Shown piece after piece: positions 23,642 to 54,441 of a stretch of DNA of 64,000 bases (positions within the stretch are counted from its first letter, which is position 1; the number at the start of each line of letters is the position of its first letter). Below the pieces are notes generated by a model. That model had not been told where the DNA came from and searched no databases. It saw nothing but the letters and a program-made list of their open reading frames with translations. Made by a program: the position numbers and the translations under genes. The stretch lies in the NCBI RefSeq assembly GCF_055900595.2, contig NZ_CM148325.1. One strand, written 5' to 3'.

Positions 23642-23758
23642 ATGCAAAAAACTTCTTTTAGACCAAAGACAGTATTTTACCAGCCTTCAAATAAAATATT
23701 AAATATCAATTATTTACACCAGATTTTAAGCAATAACAAAACCACCAGAGATAACTAA
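23642..23758 (+). other. Short ORF (38 aa) that looks like a displaced rluE 5' end
   Basis: MQKTSFRPKTVFYQ... starts at the usual distance from the divergent icd promoter, after a tataat box; taccatg...cttcttttaga recurs at the rluE start near 26391..26438. Confidence 0.4.
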
Positions 23759-23890
23759 CAGGGTGCTATTTGGTCAAAATTTGACATTACTCGATTCAGC
23801 GACTAACTCACTTTGAGCACTATTGGGAAAATTATCAAAAGTCATGGTTGAAGCGACAAGCAACGAGTAAATTATGGCATCCACCCTTTT

Positions 23891-23971
23891 TGAGGTTCAC
23901 ATGAAACGCTTTGCACTGATAGCTGTGACACTCGTTGCCTTTACTGGTTCTGCTGCAACCGAAGAAATCAA
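23891..23971 (+). CDS. 26-codon ORF encoding a signal-peptide-like peptide
   Basis: gagg RBS 6 nt upstream; MKRFALIAVTLVAFTGSAATEEINFK*; too short to be a mature secreted protein, possibly truncated. Confidence 0.3.
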
Positions 23972-24014
23972 CTTCAAGTAACAGAAACACCATATAACAA
24001 TGGAGTGTTGAAAA

Positions 24015-24464
24015 ATGGATACTACCGAAGAACGCAATGGAACATATTTCTACAGAGGACACCCGAACCTGTCCAAAATAGAACTACTCAACGTCATATT
24101 CCTTGAAGAATTCTGTAAGGAATTGGGGATTGATTCGGTATCAGGTGCAGCAATCTTATCTGGTCAACCGTGGCTGGGTACAAGAGCGAAGCCGCAAGGG
24201 GCAACCCTGGGAACAAGTGTTGTCTCAAAGTATGCGCGTATACTGATGAGAGATGCACGCATGCCTTTTGGTATTTCTGTTCATACACCAGTGGGTGTAA
24301 GGATGCAGAAATCTAATAAGCTTGCTGCAATTATCGCTCGTTGGGTCCCGTGGATTGGTTGGGCTTCACTGTCGATGAGTCTTTACAGGGTTTCGACTCG
24401 TACCCAGGAAAAATACAATCTGATTGCCAAACCTCAAGACCGTATTAAGTGGACTTCCTTCTAA
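24015..24464 (+). CDS. Hypothetical 149-aa protein, first of an overlapping two-gene module
   Basis: ggag RBS about 9 nt upstream; in-frame stop immediately upstream; MDTTEERNGTYFYRGHPNLSKIELLNVIFLEEF... with a hydrophobic stretch LAAIIARWVPWIGWASLSMSLY. Confidence 0.5.
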   Translation: MDTTEERNGTYFYRGHPNLSKIELLNVIFLEEFCKELGIDSVSGAAILSGQPWLGTRAKPQGATLGTSVVSKYARILMRDARMPFGISVHTPVGVRMQKSNKLAAIIARWVPWIGWASLSMSLYRVSTRTQEKYNLIAKPQDRIKWTSF

Positions 24465-24799
24465 TGGCGACAACAATCACAGACGAAGTTTTAGCACTGT
24501 TCCGTGATGAGATTCCAGGTTATCAGGATGACCACGGGAAGGAAATTCCGTTAGAACTGGACTCTGATTTGTTCGACTATCCACGAGATGATTTAGAGGA
24601 CGCTATACGGAAATACAAAGAGAGGTTTGGGATTAACCTGGATAATCTGGACTGGTCTTTTTACCTTCCGTGGGAGTCTGCACCATTGCTTCAACGATGG
24701 TTCAAACTCAAGCGGGAAGAGGTAGAAACAACACGTTTACCGTTAACTGTACGGATGTTTGCAGAATCAGCAGAAGCGGGAAAATGGCTGTATCAGTAG
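24449..24799 (+). CDS. Hypothetical acidic 116-aa protein, overlaps the upstream gene by 16 bp
   Basis: MDFLLMATTITDEVLALFRDEIPGYQDDHGKEIPLELDSDLFDYPRDDLEDAIRKYKERFG...; acidic, overlapping partner typical of an immunity/antitoxin-like gene; possibly DUF1493-like (from memory). Confidence 0.5.
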   Translation: MDFLLMATTITDEVLALFRDEIPGYQDDHGKEIPLELDSDLFDYPRDDLEDAIRKYKERFGINLDNLDWSFYLPWESAPLLQRWFKLKREEVETTRLPLTVRMFAESAEAGKWLYQ

Positions 24800-24891
24800 A
24801 ATAAAAAAGAAGGCTGCGATGCCCCTCTTATTACTGCTGATGATGGTAGTGGTAAAGCATCATCCTGAACTTGAACAGTGAAGTGCTGTCA

Positions 24892-26161
<1,270 letters not shown>

Positions 26162-26381
26162 CCACTACAAAACACTATTTTTCATACCAGTATTTATTCA
26201 ATTCATCAATGTAAAATGTGTTCATTGGGCCATATTTATCACCATGCAGCCACACAACCGCTGCTCACTAACCCAGGTATTGATGAAACCGCGCTGAAGA
26301 GCCTGAACCCTGAACCTCTAACGAGTACCTTTAAAGTCCAATGCAATCCGACACTGTGCTACCCTCTGCGTATAGCTCTAT

Positions 26382-27032
26382 TTGGAATTTACCATGAAAT
26401 ACTTTAGCGATTCTAAATCTTCTTTTAGAAAAAAACAGGTTAGTCGACTAAACTCGCAACACTCAACTAAGCGAAAACCTGAAAACCAGCCCACGCGTGT
26501 GATCCTGTTCAATAAACCCTACGATGTTCTTCCGCAGTTCACCGATGAAGCCGGACGCAAAACATTAAAAGAATTCATCCCGGTTCAGGGAGTGTATGCG
26601 GCAGGTCGTCTCGACCGCGACAGCGAAGGGTTACTGGTGCTGACCAATAACGGCGCTTTGCAGGCGCGTTTAACCCAGCCGGGTAAACGTACCGGGAAAA
26701 TCTATTATGTACAGGTAGAAGGTATTCCCACGGAAGACGCCCTTGAAGCGTTGCGCAATGGCGTAACCTTAAATGATGGCCCTACCCTGCCCGCAGGTGC
26801 GGAGATGGTTGAGGAGCCGGAATGGTTATGGCCCCGTAATCCGCCAATTCGTGAACGAAAAAGTATTCCCACCAGCTGGCTTAAGATCACCTTATATGAA
26901 GGACGTAATCGCCAGGTGCGCCGCATGACCGCCCATGTTGGTTTTCCCACGCTGCGACTGATTCGCTATGCGATGGGTGATTACTCTTTGGATAATCTTG
27001 CCAATGGCGAATGGCGAGAAGCGACAGATTAA
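26382..27032 (+). CDS. rluE: 23S rRNA pseudouridine synthase RluE
   Basis: 216 aa; ...[35 protein letters not shown]...[17 protein letters not shown]...; start could instead be the ATG at 26394. Confidence 0.9.
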
Positions 27033-34258: not shown

Positions 34259-35485
34259 CTACTTCCGTTGCGCCGTTAACTCGGCAATACGGACGATCAC
34301 CTGCACCGCTTTTTCCATACCTTCCAGAGTCACAAATTCATGCTTACCATGGTAGTTGTAACCGCCAGTGAACAGGTTCGGGCACGGTAATCCCATAAAC
34401 GACAACTGCGCGCCGTCGGTACCGCCGCGGATCGGTTTCAGTTCCGGCTCAATATCGCAGTCACGCATCGCCTGCTGGGCGATATCGAGAATATGCGGAT
34501 GCTCAACCACTTTCTCGCGCATATTGTAGTAACTGTCTTCAATCACCAGTTCAATGTAGCAATCAGGATGTAACCCTTTGCCCACTTTTTTGGCGATCTC
34601 CATCATTTTACGTTTACGCGCTTCAAACTGTTTACGGTCGAAATCACGGATGATGTAGTGCATATCGGCCCGTTCAACGGTGCCTTTCATGCTCGCCAGG
34701 TGATAGAAACCTTCATAGCCTTCTGTCATTTCCGGGCTTTCATCCGCCGGAACTTCCGCATGAATACGTGCCGCCAGCGACAGCGCATTTACCATCACTC
34801 CTTTCGCCGTGCCCGGGTGAACATTGTTACCGACAATTTTGATATTGACCGACGCGGCGTTGAAGTTTTCAAACTCCAGTTCGCCGACGCCACCACCATC
34901 AACGGTGTAAGCCCAGCGGGCATCGAAGGCGTCAACATCAAAATGTTTCGCCCCTTTGCCCACTTCTTCATCCGGGGTAAAGGCGACGCGAATATCACCA
35001 TGCGGAATGTTTTTTTGTTGTAATACCGCCAGCGCGGTCATGATTTCTGCAACACCTGCTTTATCATCGGCACCTAACAAGGTTTTACCATCGGTGGTAA
35101 TCAGCGTCTGACCCAGTAGCTGATGCAGCACCGGGAACATAACCGGTGATAAAACTTCATCGCCGATACCCAGCGCAATATCGCCACCACGATAGTTTTC
35201 AACAATTTGCGGATTCACATTTTTGCCGCTGCAATCCGGTGAGGTATCCACATGAGAAATAAAGCCAATCGCCGGGATATCGCCAGGGACGTTAGCCGGT
35301 AACGTCGCCATCAAAGTGCCCTTCTCACTTAAGGTCACATTGATAAGCCCCATCTCTTCGAGCTGCTCTTTCAGCAGATGCAATAACTTCCATTGGCCTT
35401 CCGTGCTGGGAACCTGTCTCACCCCTGCCTTTGATTGGGTATCCAGAGACACGTAGTTCAAAAATCGCTCAAGTAGTTTATCCAT
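34259..35485 (-). CDS. pepT: Peptidase T (tripeptide aminopeptidase)
   Basis: ORF 34259..35527; 408 aa from [25 protein letters not shown]... Confidence 0.95.
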
Positions 35486-35734
35486 GTAGTCACCCTCACT
35501 TTTTGTGACAACATTATTAAGAAGCAAGAAAAGACAAATATTGCGTCAGGTCACTTTTAGCCCTGCAAGCGGGAATATTTATCAGCATTACCTTAATGAA
35601 TATAAAGCTAAGCCAGTAATTCACAACAAAGATTGGCGATTCAAGCGGTTTGCCGTAGAATTACCGCCCTCATTAAGAGTCACCAAGGTGGTTAACCACA
35701 AACCCCGCATCGGTAAGCCATCCGTTGCGTTTAC

Positions 35735-36871
35735 ATGGGACAGAGTAAAAAATTGAATAAACAACCGAGTTCGCTTTCACCGCTGGTGCAATTGGCGGGA
35801 ATTCGCAAATGCTTTGATGGTAAAGAGGTCATTCCCCAGCTGGATCTGACTATCAACAATGGCGAGTTCCTCACGCTGCTTGGCCCTTCTGGCTGCGGTA
35901 AAACAACCGTTCTTCGCCTGATTGCAGGTCTGGAAACTGTTGATTCCGGACGCATCATGCTGGATAACGAGGACATCACCCTCGTTCCGGCGGAAAACCG
36001 CTATGTGAACACTGTTTTCCAAAGCTACGCACTTTTCCCCCACATGACCGTGTTCGAAAATGTGGCCTTTGGGTTGCGCATGCAAAAAACCCCCGCTGCT
36101 GAAATTACGCCCCGCGTGATGGAAGCCCTGCGGATGGTGCAGCTGGAAACCTTCGCTCAACGTAAACCGCATCAGCTTTCTGGTGGTCAACAGCAACGCG
36201 TCGCCATTGCTCGCGCGGTGGTTAACAAGCCTCGTCTGTTGTTGCTGGATGAGTCGCTCTCAGCGCTGGATTACAAACTGCGCAAGCAAATGCAGAACGA
36301 GCTGAAAGCGTTACAGCGTAAGCTTGGCATTACATTCGTGTTCGTAACTCACGACCAGGAAGAAGCACTCACCATGTCGGACAGGATTGTGGTGATGCGC
36401 GATGGTCGCATTGAGCAAGACGGCACGCCGCGTGAAATCTACGAAGAGCCGAAAAACCTGTTTGTTGCTGGGTTTATCGGTGAAATCAATATGTTTAATG
36501 CCACGGTCATCGAACGTCTCGACGAGCAGCGCGTACGCGCCAACGTTGAAGGCCGCGAGTGTAATATCTACGTTAACTTCGGCGTTGAACCGGGGCAAAA
36601 ACTGCATGTTCTGCTGCGCCCGGAAGACTTACGTGTTGAAGAGATTAACGACGACAACCACGCCGAAGGGCTGATTGGTTACGTTCGCGAGCGTAATTAC
36701 AAAGGCATGACGCTGGAGTCGGTTGTTGAGCTGGAAAATGGCAAGATGGTGATGGTCAGCGAATTCTTCAATGAAGACGATCCTGACTTTGACCACTCTC
36801 TCGACCAAAAAATGGCCATTAATTGGGTAGAAAGCTGGGAGGTCGTACTGGCTGATGAAGAACACAAGTAA
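35735..36871 (+). CDS. potA: Spermidine/putrescine ABC transporter ATPase PotA
   Basis: 378 aa; Walker [13 protein letters not shown] signature LSGGQQQR. Confidence 0.97.
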
Positions 36872-37712
36872 GTTCCAGAATGTAGTGATTGTCACTATCG
36901 TCGGTTGGCTTGTGTTGTTTGTCTTTCTGCCCAACCTGATGATCATTGGCACCAGCTTTTTGACCCGCGACGACGCCAGTTTCGTCAAAATGGTCTTTAC
37001 GCTGGATAACTACACGCGTCTGCTCGATCCGCTCTATTTTGAAGTGCTATTGCACTCGCTGAATATGGCGCTGATCGCCACCCTCGCCTGCCTGGTGCTG
37101 GGCTATCCCTTTGCCTGGTTTCTGGCGAAGCTGCCACACAAGGTGCGTCCGCTGCTGCTGTTTCTGCTGATTGTTCCGTTCTGGACCAACTCATTGATTC
37201 GTATCTACGGGCTGAAAATTTTCCTCAGCACCAAAGGCTATCTCAACGAGTTTTTGCTCTGGCTGGGCGTTATCGATACACCAATTCGCATTATGTTCAC
37301 ACCCAGTGCGGTGATTATCGGTCTGGTTTACATTCTGCTGCCGTTTATGGTGATGCCGCTGTACTCCAGTATCGAAAAACTGGATAAGCCGTTGCTGGAG
37401 GCGGCGCGCGATCTCGGTGCCAGCAAGTTGCAGACCTTTATCCGTATCATTATCCCACTGACGATGCCGGGGATTATTGCCGGATGTCTGCTGGTGATGC
37501 TGCCAGCGATGGGCCTGTTCTATGTGTCTGACCTGATGGGCGGTGCGAAAAACCTGCTGATTGGTAACGTCATCAAGGTCCAGTTCCTCAATATTCGTGA
37601 CTGGCCGTTTGGTGCTGCCACCAGCATTACGCTGACTATCGTAATGGGCCTGATGTTGCTGGTTTACTGGCGCGCTTCTCGTCTGCTGAATAAGAAGGTG
37701 GAACTCGAATGA
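36855..37712 (+). CDS. potB: Spermidine/putrescine ABC transporter permease PotB
   Basis: ORF-track coordinates, 285 aa; the true start may be slightly downstream; overlaps the potA 3' end. Confidence 0.93.
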
Positions 37713-38503
37713 TCGGTCGACTGCTTCGCGGCGGTTTTATGACCGCTATCTACGCGTACCTGTATATCCCAATCATTATTTTGATTGTGAACTCCTTTAA
37801 CAGCTCGCGCTTTGGCATCAACTGGCAGGGTTTTACCACCAAATGGTATAGCCTGCTGATGAACAACGACAGCCTGTTACAGGCAGCTCAGCATTCTCTG
37901 ACGATGGCGGTGTTTTCGGCGACGTTTGCTACGCTTATCGGTTCACTGACGGCAGTTGCGCTGTACCGTTATCGCTTTCGTGGTAAGCCGTTCGTTAGCG
38001 GAATGCTGTTTGTGGTGATGATGTCACCAGATATCGTAATGGCGATTTCGCTGCTGGTGCTGTTTATGCTGCTGGGTATTCAGCTTGGCTTCTGGTCGCT
38101 GCTGTTCTCGCATATCACCTTCTGCCTGCCGTTTGTGGTGGTGACGGTGTATTCGCGCCTGAAAGGTTTTGATGTGCGAATGCTGGAAGCGGCGAAAGAT
38201 CTCGGTGCCAGCGAATTTACCATTCTGCGAAAAATCATTCTGCCACTGGCAATGCCTGCGGTGGCGGCGGGCTGGGTGTTAAGCTTTACCCTGTCGATGG
38301 ACGATGTAGTAGTTTCTTCGTTCGTCACCGGACCAAGCTATGAAATTCTGCCGTTAAAAATTTATTCGATGGTCAAAGTCGGCGTATCGCCGGAAGTTAA
38401 CGCGCTGGCAACCATATTACTGGTGCTGTCGCTGGTGATGGTAATTGCCAGCCAGCTTATTGCTCGTGATAAAACGAAAGGTAACACAGGGGACGTTAAA
38501 TGA
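37709..38503 (+). CDS. potC: Spermidine/putrescine ABC transporter permease PotC
   Basis: 264 aa; 4-bp overlap with potB. Confidence 0.96.
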   Translation: MIGRLLRGGFMTAIYAYLYIPIIILIVNSFNSSRFGINWQGFTTKWYSLLMNNDSLLQAAQHSLTMAVFSATFATLIGSLTAVALYRYRFRGKPFVSGMLFVVMMSPDIVMAISLLVLFMLLGIQLGFWSLLFSHITFCLPFVVVTVYSRLKGFDVRMLEAAKDLGASEFTILRKIILPLAMPAVAAGWVLSFTLSMDDVVVSSFVTGPSYEILPLKIYSMVKVGVSPEVNALATILLVLSLVMVIASQLIARDKTKGNTGDVK

Positions 38504-39546
38504 AAAAATGGTCACGCCACCTGCTCGCGGCGGGTGCTCTGGCACTGGGCATGAGCGCCGCTCACGCCGATGACAACAACACGCTGTATTTCTACAACTG
38601 GACCGAGTACGTGCCGCCAGGACTGCTTGAACAGTTCACCAAAGAAACCGGTATTAAGGTTATCTATTCGACTTACGAGTCGAACGAAACCATGTACGCG
38701 AAGCTGAAAACGTACAAAGACGGTGCCTATGACCTGGTGGTTCCTTCAACCTATTACGTCGATAAAATGCGTAAAGAAGGGATGATCCAGAAGATCGATA
38801 AGTCGAAGTTAAGCAATTTCAGCAACCTCGATCCAGACATGCTCAACAAGCCGTTTGACCCGAATAACGACTATTCCATTCCGTATATCTGGGGTGCGAC
38901 GGCGATTGGCGTTAACGGTGATGCGGTGGATCCGAAATCTGTCACCAGCTGGGCCGATCTGTGGAAACCTGAGTACAAAGGCAGCCTGCTGCTGACCGAC
39001 GATGCCCGTGAAGTGTTCCAGATGGCGCTGCGCAAACTGGGCTACTCCGGTAACACCACCGATCCGAAAGAGATTGAAGCTGCGTATAACGAGCTGAAAA
39101 AACTGATGCCAAACGTAGCGGCGTTTAACTCCGATAACCCAGCTAACCCGTACATGGAAGGCGAAGTTAACCTCGGCATGATCTGGAACGGTTCCGCTTT
39201 CGTTGCACGCCAGGCGGGTACGCCAATTGACGTGGTATGGCCGAAAGAAGGCGGCATTTTCTGGATGGACAGCCTGGCGATCCCGGCAAATGCCAAAAAC
39301 AAAGAGGGCGCGCTGAAATTGATCAACTTCCTGCTGCGCCCGGATGTGGCAAAACAGGTTGCTGAAACTATCGGTTATCCAACGCCAAACCTCGCCGCGC
39401 GTAAGCTGTTAAGCCCGGAAATAGCGGACGACAAGACGCTCTACCCGGATGCTGAAACCATTAAAAATGGCGAATGGCAGAATGACGTTGGCGCAGCCAG
39501 CAGCATTTATGAAGAGTATTATCAGAAGCTGAAAGCAGGACGTTAA
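38500..39546 (+). CDS. potD: Spermidine/putrescine periplasmic binding protein PotD
   Basis: 348 aa with signal peptide MKKWSRHLLAAGALALGMSAAHA. Confidence 0.97.
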   Translation: MKKWSRHLLAAGALALGMSAAHADDNNTLYFYNWTEYVPPGLLEQFTKETGIKVIYSTYESNETMYAKLKTYKDGAYDLVVPSTYYVDKMRKEGMIQKIDKSKLSNFSNLDPDMLNKPFDPNNDYSIPYIWGATAIGVNGDAVDPKSVTSWADLWKPEYKGSLLLTDDAREVFQMALRKLGYSGNTTDPKEIEAAYNELKKLMPNVAAFNSDNPANPYMEGEVNLGMIWNGSAFVARQAGTPIDVVWPKEGGIFWMDSLAIPANAKNKEGALKLINFLLRPDVAKQVAETIGYPTPNLAARKLLSPEIADDKTLYPDAETIKNGEWQNDVGAASSIYEEYYQKLKAGR

Positions 39547-39553
39547 TTCAGCA

Positions 39554-39586
39554 AGCGGGCGGTGGTATTACCGCCCGTTTTTTCAT
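39554..39586 (+). terminator. Rho-independent terminator of the pot operon
   Basis: gcgggcggtggtattaccgcccg stem-loop followed by tttttt. Confidence 0.7.
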
Positions 39587-39714
39587 TTAGCAAGGATGTG
39601 GCTAATGTTGCTGTTATGGACGAGTAAACGCTAAAAGAGGCAGTAAATATGCCAGATGCGGCGTCAACGCCTTCTCTGGTCTACGACACCCGCAAATTCA
39701 ATTCATTGCGCCCC

Positions 39715-39757
39715 ATCGCAGGCCTGATAAGCGTAGCGCATCAGGCAATGCTTCCTG
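39715..39757. repeat. REP-like palindromic element
   Basis: gcaggcctgataagcgtagcgcatcaggcaatgc; GCCTGAT...ATCAGGC REP-type palindrome. Confidence 0.5.
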
Positions 39758-39759
39758 CT

Positions 39760-40581
39760 TTATAAGCCCTTCAGCAACTTTTCAACAAACTCTGGCACCA
39801 CCTGGCTTGCCGGGCCGTAATATTTCTCGGCAAATTCATTACCGACCTGACTCGGTTCAAGATTGAGTTCCACAGTGTGCGCACCATGCAGTTTCGCTTC
39901 GTGAACAAATCCAGCCGCCGGATAAACATGCCCGGAAGTACCAATGGCAATGAAAATATCGGCCATCGACAACGCCATATAAATTTCATCCATGCCGAGT
40001 GGCATTTCGCCAAACCACACTACGTGCGGGCGCAAGGGTGCCGGGAACTGGCAACAATGGCATTTATCTTCTGGCGTAACGTCTCCGGTCCAGTCGAGAA
40101 CCTGACCACTTTGCGAACAGCGAACTTTCAGCAGTTCCCCATGCATATGAATAACATTGGTATTACCTGCGCGTTCATGCAGGTTGTCGATATTCTGCGT
40201 CACCAGCAAAAAGCGATCGCCGAGAGCGTCTTGCAGTTTAGCTAGCGCAAGATGCGCGGCGTTAGGCTGAATTTCTGGCTGCTGTAGCTGTCGACGACGG
40301 GCGTTATAAAACGCTTGCACCAGTTCAGGATCGCGATCGAAACCTTCCGGCGTTGCCACATCTTCAACCCGATGTTCTTCCCACAGGCCATCTGCGGCGC
40401 GAAAGGTACGAATACCTGATTCCGCAGAAATCCCTGCCCCTGTCAGTACGAGTACTCTTGGTTTTTCCATTGCTTCCGGCACCACTTTATCTCTGAAAAA
40501 AATACGCTGACGCAAACGCTCGCGCAGGCGGCGTTTATTTTTACGAAAACGACTTAACCGATGACCCCGACGCGACAGCAT
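39760..40581 (-). CDS. cobB: NAD-dependent protein deacylase CobB (sirtuin)
   Basis: 273 aa ORF; sirtuin core [14 protein letters not shown]... and Zn-binding CxxC...CxxC. Confidence 0.95.
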
Positions 40582-40596
40582 AGCAACCTCTGTTGT

Positions 40597-41508
40597 TTAA
40601 TCGGTTAGATGTAGGAAAGCCGCACCACGCATTCCTCCCGCATCACCGTGGCGCGCGCGTTCAATGCGCGGAACACGAGCTACAGGTAAGAGATGACGAG
40701 GCAGCCTGTCCGCCAGTTGCGTTGTGATTGCCGGGAAATTCGATAAGCCACCACCAATGACGACCAGGTCAGGGTCAACAATGGTCAGGATATTTCCCAT
40801 ACAAACCGCTAACAAATCCAGATAACGCTCAACGTGCGCCCTTGCCTGCTCATCGCCTTGATCATAAAGCGCAATAATTTCGGGAGCCTGCAACGGTTGA
40901 TGATAATAGTGTTGATACAGCCACGCAAAACCGCGACCAGACAGATAATTTTCAATGCAGCCATGCTGACCACAGCCGCAGCGGCGTAACGGGAAATCCA
41001 ACCCCATCATGGTTAACGCATCAACCGGCAGACGCATATGGCCAAACTCGCCGGTAATATAGCTTTTACCGGTAATTGGTTTACCGTTGAAAATCAGCCC
41101 GCCGCCAACGCCGGTGCCGAGAATCAACCCCATCACCAGTGGATATTGAGTAAATTCATCATCCCAGGCTTCTGAAAGGGCAAAACAGTTGGCATCGTTA
41201 TCAAGGCGGACATCGCGATCAAGACGTACGCTCAGGTCGGCACGCAGCGGTTTACCGCTGGCAGCGGGGACATTGGCAGCATACAGCGTACCATCTTCTG
41301 TTTCCGGCATTCCCGGAATACCGATGCCTACAGAACCTTTACAGCCAAAACGCTTATCGGCTTCAGCCACCAGCTCGCACACTGCATCTAAAAATGCGTC
41401 ATAGCTGTCACGCGGTGTCGGCACCCGCTTTTCCCACTGCAACTGCCGACCGCTATCAAACACGCCAAGCGCAATTTTTGTTCCACCAATATCAAACCCG
41501 TAATACAT
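40597..41508 (-). CDS. nagK: N-acetyl-D-glucosamine kinase NagK
   Basis: ORF 40597..41568; 303 aa from [17 protein letters not shown] (ROK family). Confidence 0.95.
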
Positions 41509-41536
41509 TGCCGCTCCTTGTTTTAATGTACTGCCT

Positions 41537-44794
<3,258 letters not shown>

Positions 44795-44936
44795 CTAAAT
44801 TGCCATGTTTTATCATCAATCTTGCCGCCTGATCTTAATCTGAAAAATCATCCAATACAGACAGATACCCATTACACCTCGGGTCATAACCCGCAGGATC
44901 AACCGCATGTAAATTAAAAAAGAGCGTGTTGTCCTG

Positions 44937-46010
44937 ATGAAACAAAAAGAGCTATGGATTAACCAGATCAAAGGGTTATGTATTTGTCTTGTAGTGATTT
45001 ATCACTCGGTCATTACCTTTTATCCGCATCTGACCACTTTTCAGCATCCGTTATCGGAAGTCCTGAGCAAATGCTGGATCTATTTCAATCTTTACCTTGC
45101 CCCCTTTCGTATGCCGGTTTTTTTCTTTATTTCTGGCTATTTGATTCGCCGCTATATCGACAGCGTACCGTGGGGAAATTGTCTCAATAAACGCATCTGG
45201 AACATCTTCTGGGTGCTGGCGCTGTGGGGCGTGGTGCAGTGGCTGGCGTTAAGTGCGCTGAATCAGTGGCTGGCACCTGAGCGCGATTTAAGCAATGCCT
45301 CCAATGCCGCTTATGCCGATTCCACCGGTGAGTTCCTGCACGGGATGATCACCGCCAGCACCAGCTTGTGGTATCTGTATGCTTTAATTGTCTATTTCGT
45401 GATATGTAAACTTTTTAGCCGTCTGGCGCTGCCACTATTCGCCTTGTTTGTGCTGCTGAGTGTCTCTGTTAATTTCGTTCCCACGCCGTGGTGGGGAATG
45501 AACAGCGTGATCCGCAATTTGCCTTATTACAGTCTTGGCGCATGGTTTGGCGCAACATTAATAACCTGTGTTAAAGCGGTGCCGTTGCGCCGCCATCTGC
45601 TGATGGCTTCTTTGTTGGCCGTTCTGGCGGTCGGTGCCTGGTTGTTTAATATCTCGCTGCTGTTGTCGCTGGTATCGATTGTGGTGATCATGAAGCTGTT
45701 TTATCAGTACGAGCAACGCTTCGGTATGCGCTCCTCCAGCCTGCTGAATGTGATTGGCTCCAACACCATTGCTATCTATACCACCCATCGCATACTGGTA
45801 GAAATATTCAGCTTAAGCCTGATTCCGCAAATGAACGCGGCACGCTGGTCGCCGCAAGTCGAACTGACGCTCCTGCTGGTTTACCCCTTTGTCAGTTTGT
45901 TGATTTGTACTGTTGCGGGCTTGCTGGTAAGAAAACTTTCACAGCGCGCATTCAGCGATCTGTTGTTCTCCCCGCCTTCTCTGCCCGCTGCCGTCAGTTA
46001 CTCCCGCTAA
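44937..46010 (+). CDS. ycfT: Acyltransferase-3 family inner-membrane protein YcfT
   Basis: 357 aa, multi-TM, MKQKELWINQIKGLCICLVVIYHSVITFYP... Confidence 0.9.
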   Translation: MKQKELWINQIKGLCICLVVIYHSVITFYPHLTTFQHPLSEVLSKCWIYFNLYLAPFRMPVFFFISGYLIRRYIDSVPWGNCLNKRIWNIFWVLALWGVVQWLALSALNQWLAPERDLSNASNAAYADSTGEFLHGMITASTSLWYLYALIVYFVICKLFSRLALPLFALFVLLSVSVNFVPTPWWGMNSVIRNLPYYSLGAWFGATLITCVKAVPLRRHLLMASLLAVLAVGAWLFNISLLLSLVSIVVIMKLFYQYEQRFGMRSSSLLNVIGSNTIAIYTTHRILVEIFSLSLIPQMNAARWSPQVELTLLLVYPFVSLLICTVAGLLVRKLSQRAFSDLLFSPPSLPAAVSYSR

Positions 46011-46137
46011 GCCATCGCCCCAGCCGGGGCGATTCAATTTGCTAAACCATGTCGATTACGGATAATGAACAGCATTGCTTATCAGAGATATGCCCCCATA
46101 TGTTGAGGCATATCCTAACGAGAATCTGACAACCGTT

Positions 46138-54298: not shown

Positions 54299-54375
54299 TA
54301 GGCCTGATAAGACGCGAGCGGCGTCGCATCAGGCACATTGCCAGTGTCGGATGCGGCGTGAACGCCCTATCCGAC
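54299..54375. repeat. REP/BIME palindromic elements
   Basis: ggcctgataagacgcgagcggcgtcgcatcaggca plus gtcggatgcggcgtgaacgccctatccgac. Confidence 0.7.
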
Positions 54376-54441
54376 CTACAGAATTTACAGAATCTGGAAC
54401 GCATCAGGTATCAGCAAGGTTACCTGATGCGACGAGGGCAT

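What the first reader, a model, noticed from the sequence alone, without database searches (positions are those of the whole stretch)
39546..39760. cobB directly follows potD; no ycfZ-ymfA genes
From memory of the K-12 map, ycfZ and ymfA lie between cobB and potD. Here only 214 bp separate them, containing the pot terminator and a REP-like palindrome, so this strain appears to lack that gene pair.
Basis: partly seen in the sequence, partly recalled or inferred. Interest (0 to 1): 0.25.

Follow-up and report, generated by a model that had tools for sequence, protein, structure and literature searches.

The report
Secondary deletion of ymfA-ycfZ genes
This E. coli-like strain (cryptic clade I) has cleanly lost two small membrane-protein genes of unknown function that sit between potD and cobB in K-12; this is an ordinary gene presence/absence difference, already known at the gene level.

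Summary
potD ends at 39546 and the convergent cobB ends at 39760, with 213 bp between them. K-12 has ymfA (DUF3592) and ycfZ (TPM domain) at exactly this junction.

The absence is a secondary deletion of about 1.23 kb, not an ancestral state. The spacer still carries the ymfA leader and ATG (39587-39607). These are fused in frame to the last ~8 codons of ycfZ, giving the mini-ORF MLLLWTSKR* (39605-39634). The K-12-type REP pair follows.

Genera that never had the pair (Citrobacter, Salmonella) lack these remnants.

Among 5,426 complete E. coli genomes:
- 4,850 carry ymfA-ycfZ and 576 do not.
- 14 share this window's junction.
- 559, including O157:H7, carry a different, non-nested junction, so the pair was lost at least twice.
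- A third deletion, IS1 insertions and a nonsense allele also exist.

The window belongs to Escherichia cryptic clade I. Every complete clade I genome I identified (18) lacks the pair, through one junction or the other.

Variable presence of b1121/ycfZ and ymfA is already in the literature. Interest is low. The mildly interesting side points are the recurrent loss, the very divergent alleles, and one deletion allele shared across deep Escherichia lineages.

The parts
38500..39546 (+). potD, last gene of potABCD; intact, 348 aa
   Evidence: ORF list; 99% aa identity to K-12 PotD; PGAP annotation of the identical stretch in L001
39553..39586 (+). pot operon intrinsic terminator: G+C-rich hairpin 39553-39580 followed by a T run
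   Evidence: Terminator scan; inverted repeat I1; RNA fold; sequence identical to the K-12 potD-ymfA spacer
39587..39607 (+). Remnant of the ymfA leader (AAGGA ribosome-binding site) and ymfA start codon ATG at 39605-39607; left edge of the deletion
   Evidence: TTAGCAAGGATGTGGCTAATG is identical to K-12 immediately upstream of and including the ymfA ATG. It is absent from the potD-cobB spacers of Salmonella and Citrobacter.
39608..39609 (.). Deletion junction: two bases (TT) that cannot be assigned to either side using the alleles available
   Evidence: Alignment with K-12, UID2309220009, STEC384 and TUM13936 full-length alleles
39610..39634 (+). Remnant of the ycfZ 3' end (last ~8 codons plus stop). 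Together with the ymfA ATG it forms a 9-codon in-frame mini-ORF, 39605-39634, MLLLWTSKR*.
   Evidence: Alignment to the K-12 ycfZ end ...TTGTTATTGACGAGTAAACGATAA; translation
39635..39650 (.). Spacer homologous to the K-12 ycfZ-cobB spacer, 13 bp shorter than in full-length alleles
   Evidence: Alignment
39651..39684 (+). REP1, a degenerate Y-type REP palindrome: 5 mismatches to the recalled consensus, two of which preserve the stem
   Evidence: Homologous to the K-12 REP in the ycfZ-cobB spacer. The recalled Y consensus finds another copy at 54346-54379. Sub-threshold Rfam naRNA4 (REP-derived) match.
39685..39717 (.). Linker between the two inverted REPs (CCGCAAATTCAATTCATTGCG...). From memory it resembles the IHF-binding L motif of BIME-1/RIP elements; not tested.
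   Evidence: Conserved in K-12 and other alleles. The REP1-linker-REP2 unit matches other loci as a unit, e.g. a plasmid hit covering query 450-548.
39718..39750 (-). REP2, a Z-type REP palindrome inverted relative to REP1. It lies 9 bp (39751-39759) from the cobB stop codon.
   Evidence: The REP tail CTTATCMGGCCTRC occurs 3 times in the window against 0.06 expected; exact core; multiple places per genome (median 9); sub-threshold naRNA4 hit
39760..40581 (-). cobB (Sir2-family NAD+-dependent deacylase); intact, 273 aa; convergent with potD
   Evidence: ORF list; 100% aa identity to K-12 CobB residues 1-273; PGAP annotation in L001

Best explanation
The 213-bp potD-cobB spacer is the scar of a ~1.23 kb deletion. 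The deletion removed almost all of ymfA (a DUF3592 membrane protein) and ycfZ (a TPM-domain membrane protein), a gene pair that occupies this slot in most Escherichia.

Shown:
- The deletion runs from just after the ymfA start codon to about 24 nt before the ycfZ stop.
- It is in frame and leaves a 9-codon mini-ORF behind the ymfA ribosome-binding site.
- The pot terminator upstream, the REP1-linker-REP2 unit downstream, and both flanking genes are untouched.
- The allele is carried by 14 of 5,426 complete genomes, all in the cryptic clade I group as far as I could identify them.
- It is independent of the commoner O157:H7-type deletion at the same locus.

Inferred:
- The deletion arose by illegitimate recombination, since no convincing microhomology is visible.
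- Its only direct consequence is loss of two non-essential inner-membrane proteins of unknown function.
- potABCD termination and cobB expression are unaffected.
For: K-12 carries ymfA and ycfZ between potD and cobB. The window aligns to K-12 continuously on both sides, with one gap that exactly spans ymfA nt 4 to near the ycfZ end. The retained 21 nt, TTAGCAAGGATGTGGCTAATG, are identical to the K-12 ymfA leader plus ATG. The retained GTTATGGACGAGTAAACGCTAAAAGAGGC matches the K-12 ycfZ end at 27 of 29 positions.

Species that have potD and cobB directly adjacent (Salmonella arizonae, several Citrobacter, Phytobacter ursingii) have unrelated spacers without these motifs.

ymfA-ycfZ is present at this position in the E. 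coli species representative, E. albertii and E. whittamii, and more distantly in two Phytobacter.

4,850 of 5,426 complete genomes have the pair and 576 have none. The same number, 576, have potD and cobB contiguous. 14 genomes share the window junction.

The O157-type junction (559 genomes) keeps ~44 nt of ymfA but lacks the ycfZ end and REP1. The window keeps the ycfZ end and REP1 but only 3 nt of ymfA. Neither can be derived from the other by further deletion.

No relocated copy exists in the window.
Against: No clade I genome with an intact pair was found, so the immediate progenitor allele is unknown. The breakpoints can be placed only to within 2-3 nt.

The mechanism of deletion is not shown. 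No flanking direct repeat or mobile-element trace was seen.

The claim that the genomes with the window junction lack the pair genome-wide rests on matching counts (576 = 576), not on a per-genome check.
Confidence: 0.93

Rival explanations
1. Primitive absence: this lineage never acquired ymfA-ycfZ and keeps the ancestral enterobacterial arrangement, with potD directly next to cobB.
For: Most Enterobacteriaceae sampled (Citrobacter spp., Salmonella arizonae, many Enterobacter, Kluyvera and Trabulsiella) have potD and cobB adjacent with 50-110 bp spacers. At family level, the empty slot is therefore probably ancestral.
Against: The window spacer contains the ymfA ribosome-binding site and ATG, and the last codons and stop of ycfZ, in the ycfZ reading frame. 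The outgroup spacers lack both. E. albertii and E. whittamii, which branch outside E. coli plus clade I, have the pair.
Confidence: 0.03
2. The deletion did not arise in this strain's direct ancestors. It was imported as a ready-made deletion allele by homologous recombination through the potD and cobB flanks from another Escherichia lineage.
For: Deletion alleles do move, or persist, across lineages. The O157-type junction is identical to the nucleotide in phylogroup E O157:H7, in clade I strains 2017-02-2CC and 2013C-4282, and in the separate species-level Escherichia sp. E1V33.

Between the window and clade I strain 2017-02-2CC, all 10 cobB differences lie within the 300 bp next to the junction. 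The adjacent 300 bp of potD differ at only 2 sites. This is the signature of a recombination tract ending in cobB.
Against: The window-type junction was found only in genomes of the clade I group, so no external donor is known. The recombination signal could equally mean that 2017-02-2CC was the recipient.
Confidence: 0.25
3. Assembly or sequencing artefact: the gene pair is present in the organism but collapsed out of the assembly.
For: None found. REP sequences can in principle confuse short-read assemblers.
Against: The same junction is present in 14 independent complete genomes from dog, cattle, goat, pig, food and humans. The deleted segment is unique sequence, not a repeat. The breakpoints lie in unique ymfA and ycfZ sequence, not in the REPs.
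Confidence: 0.01

Closest known systems
E. coli K-12 potD-ymfA-ycfZ-cobB locus (b1123-b1120)
   Same: Same flanking genes, same pot terminator, same ymfA leader and ATG, same ycfZ stop region, and the same REP-linker-REP unit before cobB.
   Different: The window lacks about 1,228 bp (1,440-1,441 bp versus 213 bp between potD and cobB). The K-12 CobB carries 6 extra C-terminal residues that read into REP2.
O157:H7-type deletion of ymfA-ycfZ (559 complete genomes; also clade I strains 2013C-4282 and 2017-02-2CC, and Escherichia sp. E1V33)
   Same: Same slot, same outcome (both genes lost, potD and cobB intact), similar size (net 1,285-1,286 bp).
   Different: The breakpoints differ. The O157 type keeps ymfA codons 1-15 (remnant ORF MSQDSKVLSRSFVGIVVRL*) and removes the ycfZ end, REP1 and most of the linker. 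The window keeps only the ATG but retains the ycfZ end, REP1 and the linker. The two are independent events.
Salmonella/Citrobacter-type direct potD-cobB adjacency
   Same: Convergent potD and cobB with a short spacer holding a terminator and/or REP-like palindromes.
   Different: Those spacers have no ymfA or ycfZ remnants. They represent a never-occupied slot, or one occupied by unrelated genes in other genera.
REP/BIME extragenic palindromes of E. coli (Y and Z types; BIME-1/RIP with an IHF-binding linker - recalled from the literature, not from a tool)
   Same: Two ~34-nt imperfect palindromes in inverted orientation between convergent genes. The conserved tail CTTATCAGGCCTRC recurs in the window. 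The units recur at a median of 9 places per genome.
   Different: REP1 is degenerate (5 of 34 mismatches to the recalled Y consensus). IHF binding of the linker was not tested.

Membership tests
Deletion allele of the ymfA-ycfZ locus (as opposed to a never-occupied slot) | Flanks collinear with a full-length reference, with a single gap spanning the genes | tested here: met
   blastn and MAFFT against K-12: window 34877-39607 and 39612-46101 align to K-12 on either side of ymfA-ycfZ
Deletion allele of the ymfA-ycfZ locus (as opposed to a never-occupied slot) | Residual gene-internal sequence on both sides of the junction | tested here: met
   ymfA leader and ATG at 39587-39607, and the last ~8 ycfZ codons with stop at 39610-34 in frame; absent from the Salmonella and Citrobacter spacers
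Deletion allele of the ymfA-ycfZ locus (as opposed to a never-occupied slot) | Sister or outgroup lineages within the genus carry the intact genes | tested here: met
   E. albertii, E. whittamii and the E. coli representative have both genes at this site
Same event as the O157:H7-type deletion | Identical breakpoints | tested here: not met
   The breakpoints differ and are not nested; 14 versus 559 genomes
REP / BIME elements | Imperfect ~35-nt palindrome with a conserved head and tail, repeated many times per genome, extragenic | tested here: met
   Tail motif found 3 times in the window versus 0.06 expected. Y consensus finds another copy. Median 9 matching places per genome for a query whose only repeated part is the REP region. 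Sub-threshold naRNA4 (REP-derived) hits at both units.
REP / BIME elements | BIME-1/RIP subtype: the linker binds IHF | not testable with these tools
   The resemblance of AAATTCAATTCATTG to the IHF site is recalled from memory only
Intrinsic (Rho-independent) terminator | G+C-rich hairpin directly followed by a U run, downstream of the last gene of the operon | tested here: met
   12-pair stem (7 G-C), 4-nt loop, T run, 7 nt after the potD stop; also formed in the MFE and centroid folds. Termination activity itself was not tested.
Escherichia cryptic clade I (C-I) | At least 98.3% nucleotide identity to recognised C-I strains, but ~96-97% to E. coli sensu stricto (criterion from PMC10100065) | tested here: met
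   Over 24 kb the window is 98.3% identical to EC42405 and 2013C-4282, both listed as C-I in PMC10100065. It is about 97.2% identical to all other E. coli. This is a local measurement only, not whole-genome ANI.
Escherichia cryptic clade I (C-I) | Presence of the C-I-specific marker gene used for PCR typing | not tested

The most novel reading that the evidence does not exclude
ymfA-ycfZ may be a locus under fluctuating or diversifying selection, in which loss is repeatedly favoured, rather than a neutral accessory pair.

Supporting observations:
- At least three independent deletions, plus IS1 insertions and a nonsense allele.
- Intact alleles fall into very divergent classes: ymfA 78% and ycfZ 90% nucleotide identity within E. 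coli, against ~97-98% in the flanks.
- One deletion allele is shared, identical to the nucleotide, by O157:H7, part of clade I and a separate Escherichia species.

This pattern would fit an envelope protein pair exploited by a phage, a colicin or host immunity. The window's deletion would then be an adaptive loss.
Probability: 0.15. Interest if true: 0.45.

Novelty: already known. Interest (0 to 1): 0.14.

Why it matters
It matters little in itself. It is a small indel polymorphism affecting two uncharacterised, dispensable inner-membrane proteins, and it leaves the polyamine transporter operon and the CobB deacylase intact.

Practical value:
- The junction sequence is a clean marker. The window-type scar appears confined to cryptic clade I, and the other scar marks O157:H7 and relatives.
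- ycfZ (b1121) is sometimes scored as a "virulence-associated" gene on arrays and in virulome lists. Its absence should be read as lineage history rather than pathotype.
- The locus could serve as a small natural experiment for recurrent gene loss and for the movement of deletion alleles by homologous recombination in Escherichia.

Tried and rejected
- **Defence-system role for the missing genes.** PADLOC gives no hit for YmfA or YcfZ. Pfam gives only DUF3592 and the TPM domain.
- **A hidden RNA gene in the spacer.** Rfam gives only sub-threshold naRNA4 (REP-derived) hits and a spurious miRNA hit on the terminator. The overall fold z-score of -2.5 is explained by the terminator and REP hairpins.
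- **A relocated copy of the genes in the window.** None found.
- **A clade I genome with the intact pair, to map the breakpoints exactly.** The best candidate by potD similarity, TUM13936, proved not to be clade I (97.9% and 96.5% in the flanks). None was found among complete genomes.
- **Microhomology or direct repeats at the breakpoints.** Nothing convincing; two junction bases remain unassigned.
- **A localised patch of divergence as the cause of low identity to K-12.** Rejected. Divergence of ~97% is spread over the whole region and reflects the clade I background.
- **Strain names.** E1V33, MOD1-EC7003, Z0117EC0005 and RMDEC465 gave no useful literature. The clade of E1V33 is therefore described only by its flank similarity to E. 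whittamii.

Full report
**1. The observation**

In the window, potABCD lies on the + strand, and potD (38500..39546) ends with TAA at 39544-39546. The next gene is cobB on the - strand (39760..40581), followed by nagK, lolE, lolD, lolC, ycfT and mfd. A RefSeq genome that is 99.99% identical over this stretch (NZ_CP098223.1) is annotated in the same way.

213 bases (39547-39759) separate the two stop codons. They contain:
- a terminator-like hairpin at 39553-39580 followed by a T run;
- two REP-type palindromes, not one: REP1 at 39651-39684 and REP2 at 39718-39750 in inverted orientation.

No YmfA- or YcfZ-like coding sequence exists anywhere in the 64 kb.

**2. The K-12 comparison**

In K-12 the order is potD, ymfA (DUF3592 protein, 153 aa), ycfZ (TPM-domain protein, 262 aa), then convergent cobB. 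The window aligns to K-12 on both sides, 34877-39607 and 39612-46101, with one gap corresponding to ymfA-ycfZ. The distance between potD and the cobB stop is 1,440-1,441 bp in full-length alleles and 213 bp here, a net loss of about 1,228 bp.

**3. What the spacer really is**

The spacer is a deletion scar. Directly after the pot terminator, the window keeps TTAGCAAGGATGTGGCTAATG (39587-39607), which is identical to the K-12 ymfA leader with its ribosome-binding site and start codon. Two bases later comes GCTGTTATGGACGAGTAAACGCTAA (39610-39634), which corresponds to the last ~8 codons and the stop of ycfZ. The K-12 ycfZ-cobB spacer with its REP-linker-REP unit follows.

The join is in frame. 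It leaves a 9-codon ORF, MLLLWTSKR*, whose last residues are the YcfZ C-terminus. I found no direct repeat or mobile-element trace at the breakpoints. Two junction bases (39608-39609) cannot be assigned. The mechanism, illegitimate recombination, is inferred and not shown.

**4. Deletion versus primitive absence**

I fetched the potD neighbourhood from 80 species-level genomes and scored what follows potD.
- ymfA-ycfZ occupies the slot in the E. coli representative, E. albertii and E. whittamii. It also occupies the slot, at 50-59% protein identity, in two Phytobacter species.
- Most other Enterobacteriaceae have potD and cobB directly adjacent. These include many Citrobacter, Salmonella arizonae, Trabulsiella and many Enterobacter.
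- Several genera hold unrelated genes in the same slot: an acyl-CoA-synthetase-like gene, an EAL/HDOD-like gene, a two-component system plus a MipA-like gene, and small membrane proteins (read by eye).

The spacers of the never-occupied type (Salmonella, Citrobacter, Phytobacter ursingii) contain no trace of the ymfA leader or the ycfZ end. At family level the empty slot is therefore probably ancestral and the pair is a genus-level acquisition. The window's state is a secondary loss.

**5. Survey across E. coli**

Counts among 5,426 complete genomes:

| State | Genomes |
|---|---|
| Match to K-12 ymfA-ycfZ | 4,850 (4,827 cover at least 80%) |
| No match | 576 |
| potD and cobB contiguous | 576 |
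| Window-type junction | 14 |
| O157-type junction | 559 |

The O157-type junction, exemplified by O157:H7 strains and strain 132, keeps the first ~44 nt of ymfA (remnant ORF MSQDSKVLSRSFVGIVVRL*). It removes the ycfZ end, REP1 and most of the linker. Each scar retains sequence that the other lacks, so they are independent deletions. Three of the 576 genomes match neither junction query and were not examined.

Further independent lesions exist:
- a deletion from inside potD to the last 168 bp of ycfZ (JSMCR1);
- IS1 insertions (H125);
- an internal stop in ycfZ (STEC384).

**6. Lineage**

The window is about 97.2% identical to K-12, to O157-like genomes and to nearly all other E. coli, and this divergence is spread evenly across the region. 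Ten genomes are identical to the window over the 458-bp potD-end query. About eight more are 98.3-98.5% identical over the 24-kb query. Two of those, EC42405 and 2013C-4282, are named as Escherichia cryptic clade I strains in PMC10100065. That paper gives ANI above 98.3% within the clade and above 95.9% to E. coli sensu stricto. The window therefore comes from cryptic clade I, judged on local identity only.

Within this group, 14 complete genomes carry the window-type scar. At least four carry the O157-type scar: 2017-02-2CC and 2013C-4282 by direct inspection, and WL297 and 2020CK-00188 by their 57-59-bp-shorter alignments. I found no clade I genome with an intact pair. The closest potD allele with an intact ymfA, in TUM13936, is not clade I.

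**7. Side findings on the locus**

- The O157-type junction is identical to the nucleotide in O157:H7, in clade I strains and in Escherichia sp. E1V33. E1V33 is a separate GTDB species whose flanks are closest to E. whittamii. The surrounding flanks follow lineage rather than junction type. Either this deletion allele is an old polymorphism or it has been moved by short-tract homologous recombination.
- Between the window and clade I strain 2017-02-2CC, all 10 cobB differences fall in the 300 bp next to the junction. This fits a recombination tract boundary.
- Intact alleles are unusually divergent: 78% nucleotide identity between two ymfA classes and ~90% between ycfZ classes, against 97-98% in the flanks. 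3,269 genomes are only 90-95% identical to the K-12 pair.

**8. Function and consequences**

YmfA and YcfZ match only DUF3592 and the TPM domain in Pfam and no PADLOC defence model. The literature treats them as inner-membrane proteins of unknown function.
- b1121/ycfZ appears on virulence arrays as "homologous to virulence factor" and is reported as variably present among strains (PMC2749873, PMC3091784).
- YmfA was found in 359 of 524 genomes in a pangenome study (PMC8788219).
- ycfZ appears in lists from a phage-resistance evolution study and from a CRISPRi screen, without mechanistic follow-up.

The deletion removes both proteins. It leaves PotD (99% identical to K-12), the pot terminator and CobB (identical to K-12 over 273 aa) intact. 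No effect on the neighbouring genes is expected; this is inferred, not measured.

**9. Verdict**

Both the observation and the interpretation hold. The feature is an ordinary lineage-specific deletion of a known variable gene pair. The most useful additions are three:
- It is a true secondary deletion with mapped remnants.
- It is a rare scar (14 of 5,426 genomes) distinct from the common O157-type scar.
- The window is cryptic clade I.

Novelty: already known at the level of gene presence or absence. Interest is low. The only reading with some upside is that recurrent loss, together with extreme allelic divergence, reflects selection on an envelope protein pair. That reading is untested.

Noticed in passing
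L003 3405-3464; L006 ~11606-11665; L011 ~3362-3420: The O157:H7-type ymfA-ycfZ deletion junction is identical to the nucleotide in phylogroup E O157:H7, in cryptic clade I strains (2017-02-2CC, 2013C-4282) and in the separate species-level Escherichia sp. E1V33. The flanks follow lineage. This points to an old polymorphism or to recombinational spread of a deletion allele.
   Followed up: partly
L002 4728-5974 versus L004 and L005: Intact ymfA and ycfZ alleles are extremely divergent within E. coli: two ymfA classes at 78% nt / 75% aa identity, and ycfZ classes at ~90% nt. They combine mosaically, while the flanks are 97-98% identical.
   Followed up: partly
window 39760-39780 versus L002 6094-6115: K-12 CobB is 279 aa and the window CobB is 273 aa. 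A 1-bp deletion in K-12 destroys the TAA stop, so K-12 cobB reads 18 nt further (KAGSIA) into the REP2 palindrome. The 273 shared residues are identical despite 21 nucleotide differences.
   Followed up: yes
window 39760-40060 versus L006: All 10 cobB differences between the window and clade I strain 2017-02-2CC lie within 300 bp of the cobB stop. The adjacent 300 bp of potD differ at only 2 sites. This suggests a recombination tract boundary inside cobB.
   Followed up: partly
window ~37687 (potB 3' end / potC start): The closest relative (Z0117EC0005, 99.99% identical) and O157-like strain 132 both carry a prophage here (integrase, excisionase, exonuclease, dicB). Their collinearity with the window stops at window base 37687. 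The window has an uninterrupted potB-potC.
   Followed up: partly
window 23663-26414: A 2.75 kb insertion relative to clade I strain N96, between icd and rluE. It holds IS3-family-like transposase ORFs (24948-25295 and 25415-26161, judged by eye) and two small overlapping ORFs of unknown function (24015-24464 and 24449-24799).
   Followed up: no
window 60783-61487: A ~0.7 kb insertion relative to N96, between fhuE and ptsG. Its ORF (60886-61395, -) looks like an IS200/IS605-type Y1 transposase (judged by eye, not tested). Conversely, N96 has an IS621 between ndh and ycfP that the window lacks (~54300).
   Followed up: no
window 3000-7807 (-): The AIDA-repeat autotransporter gene is a single 1,558-aa ORF in N96. 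In the window it is split into two frames by a 2-nt indel near 3626-3659. This is either a pseudogene or a sequencing error.
   Followed up: partly
L014, L018, L056, L071, L082, L022, L030, L065 (between potD and cobB): The convergent potD-cobB spacer is a variable slot across Enterobacteriaceae. Different genera hold unrelated genes there: acyl-CoA-synthetase-like, EAL/HDOD-like, a two-component system plus a MipA-like gene, and small membrane proteins. Two Phytobacter species hold distant ymfA-ycfZ homologues.
   Followed up: partly
L089 1234-1669 (JSMCR1); H125; L005 2979-3767: Further independent inactivations of the locus: a deletion fusing truncated potD to the last 168 bp of ycfZ, IS1 insertions in ymfA/ycfZ, and an internal stop in ycfZ.
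   Followed up: partly
L008 5105-5284 (Escherichia sp. MOD1-EC7003): The reading frame of ymfA breaks off after ~40 codons into unrelated sequence, and the contig ends soon after. This may be a mobile-element insertion in ymfA in that lineage.
   Followed up: no
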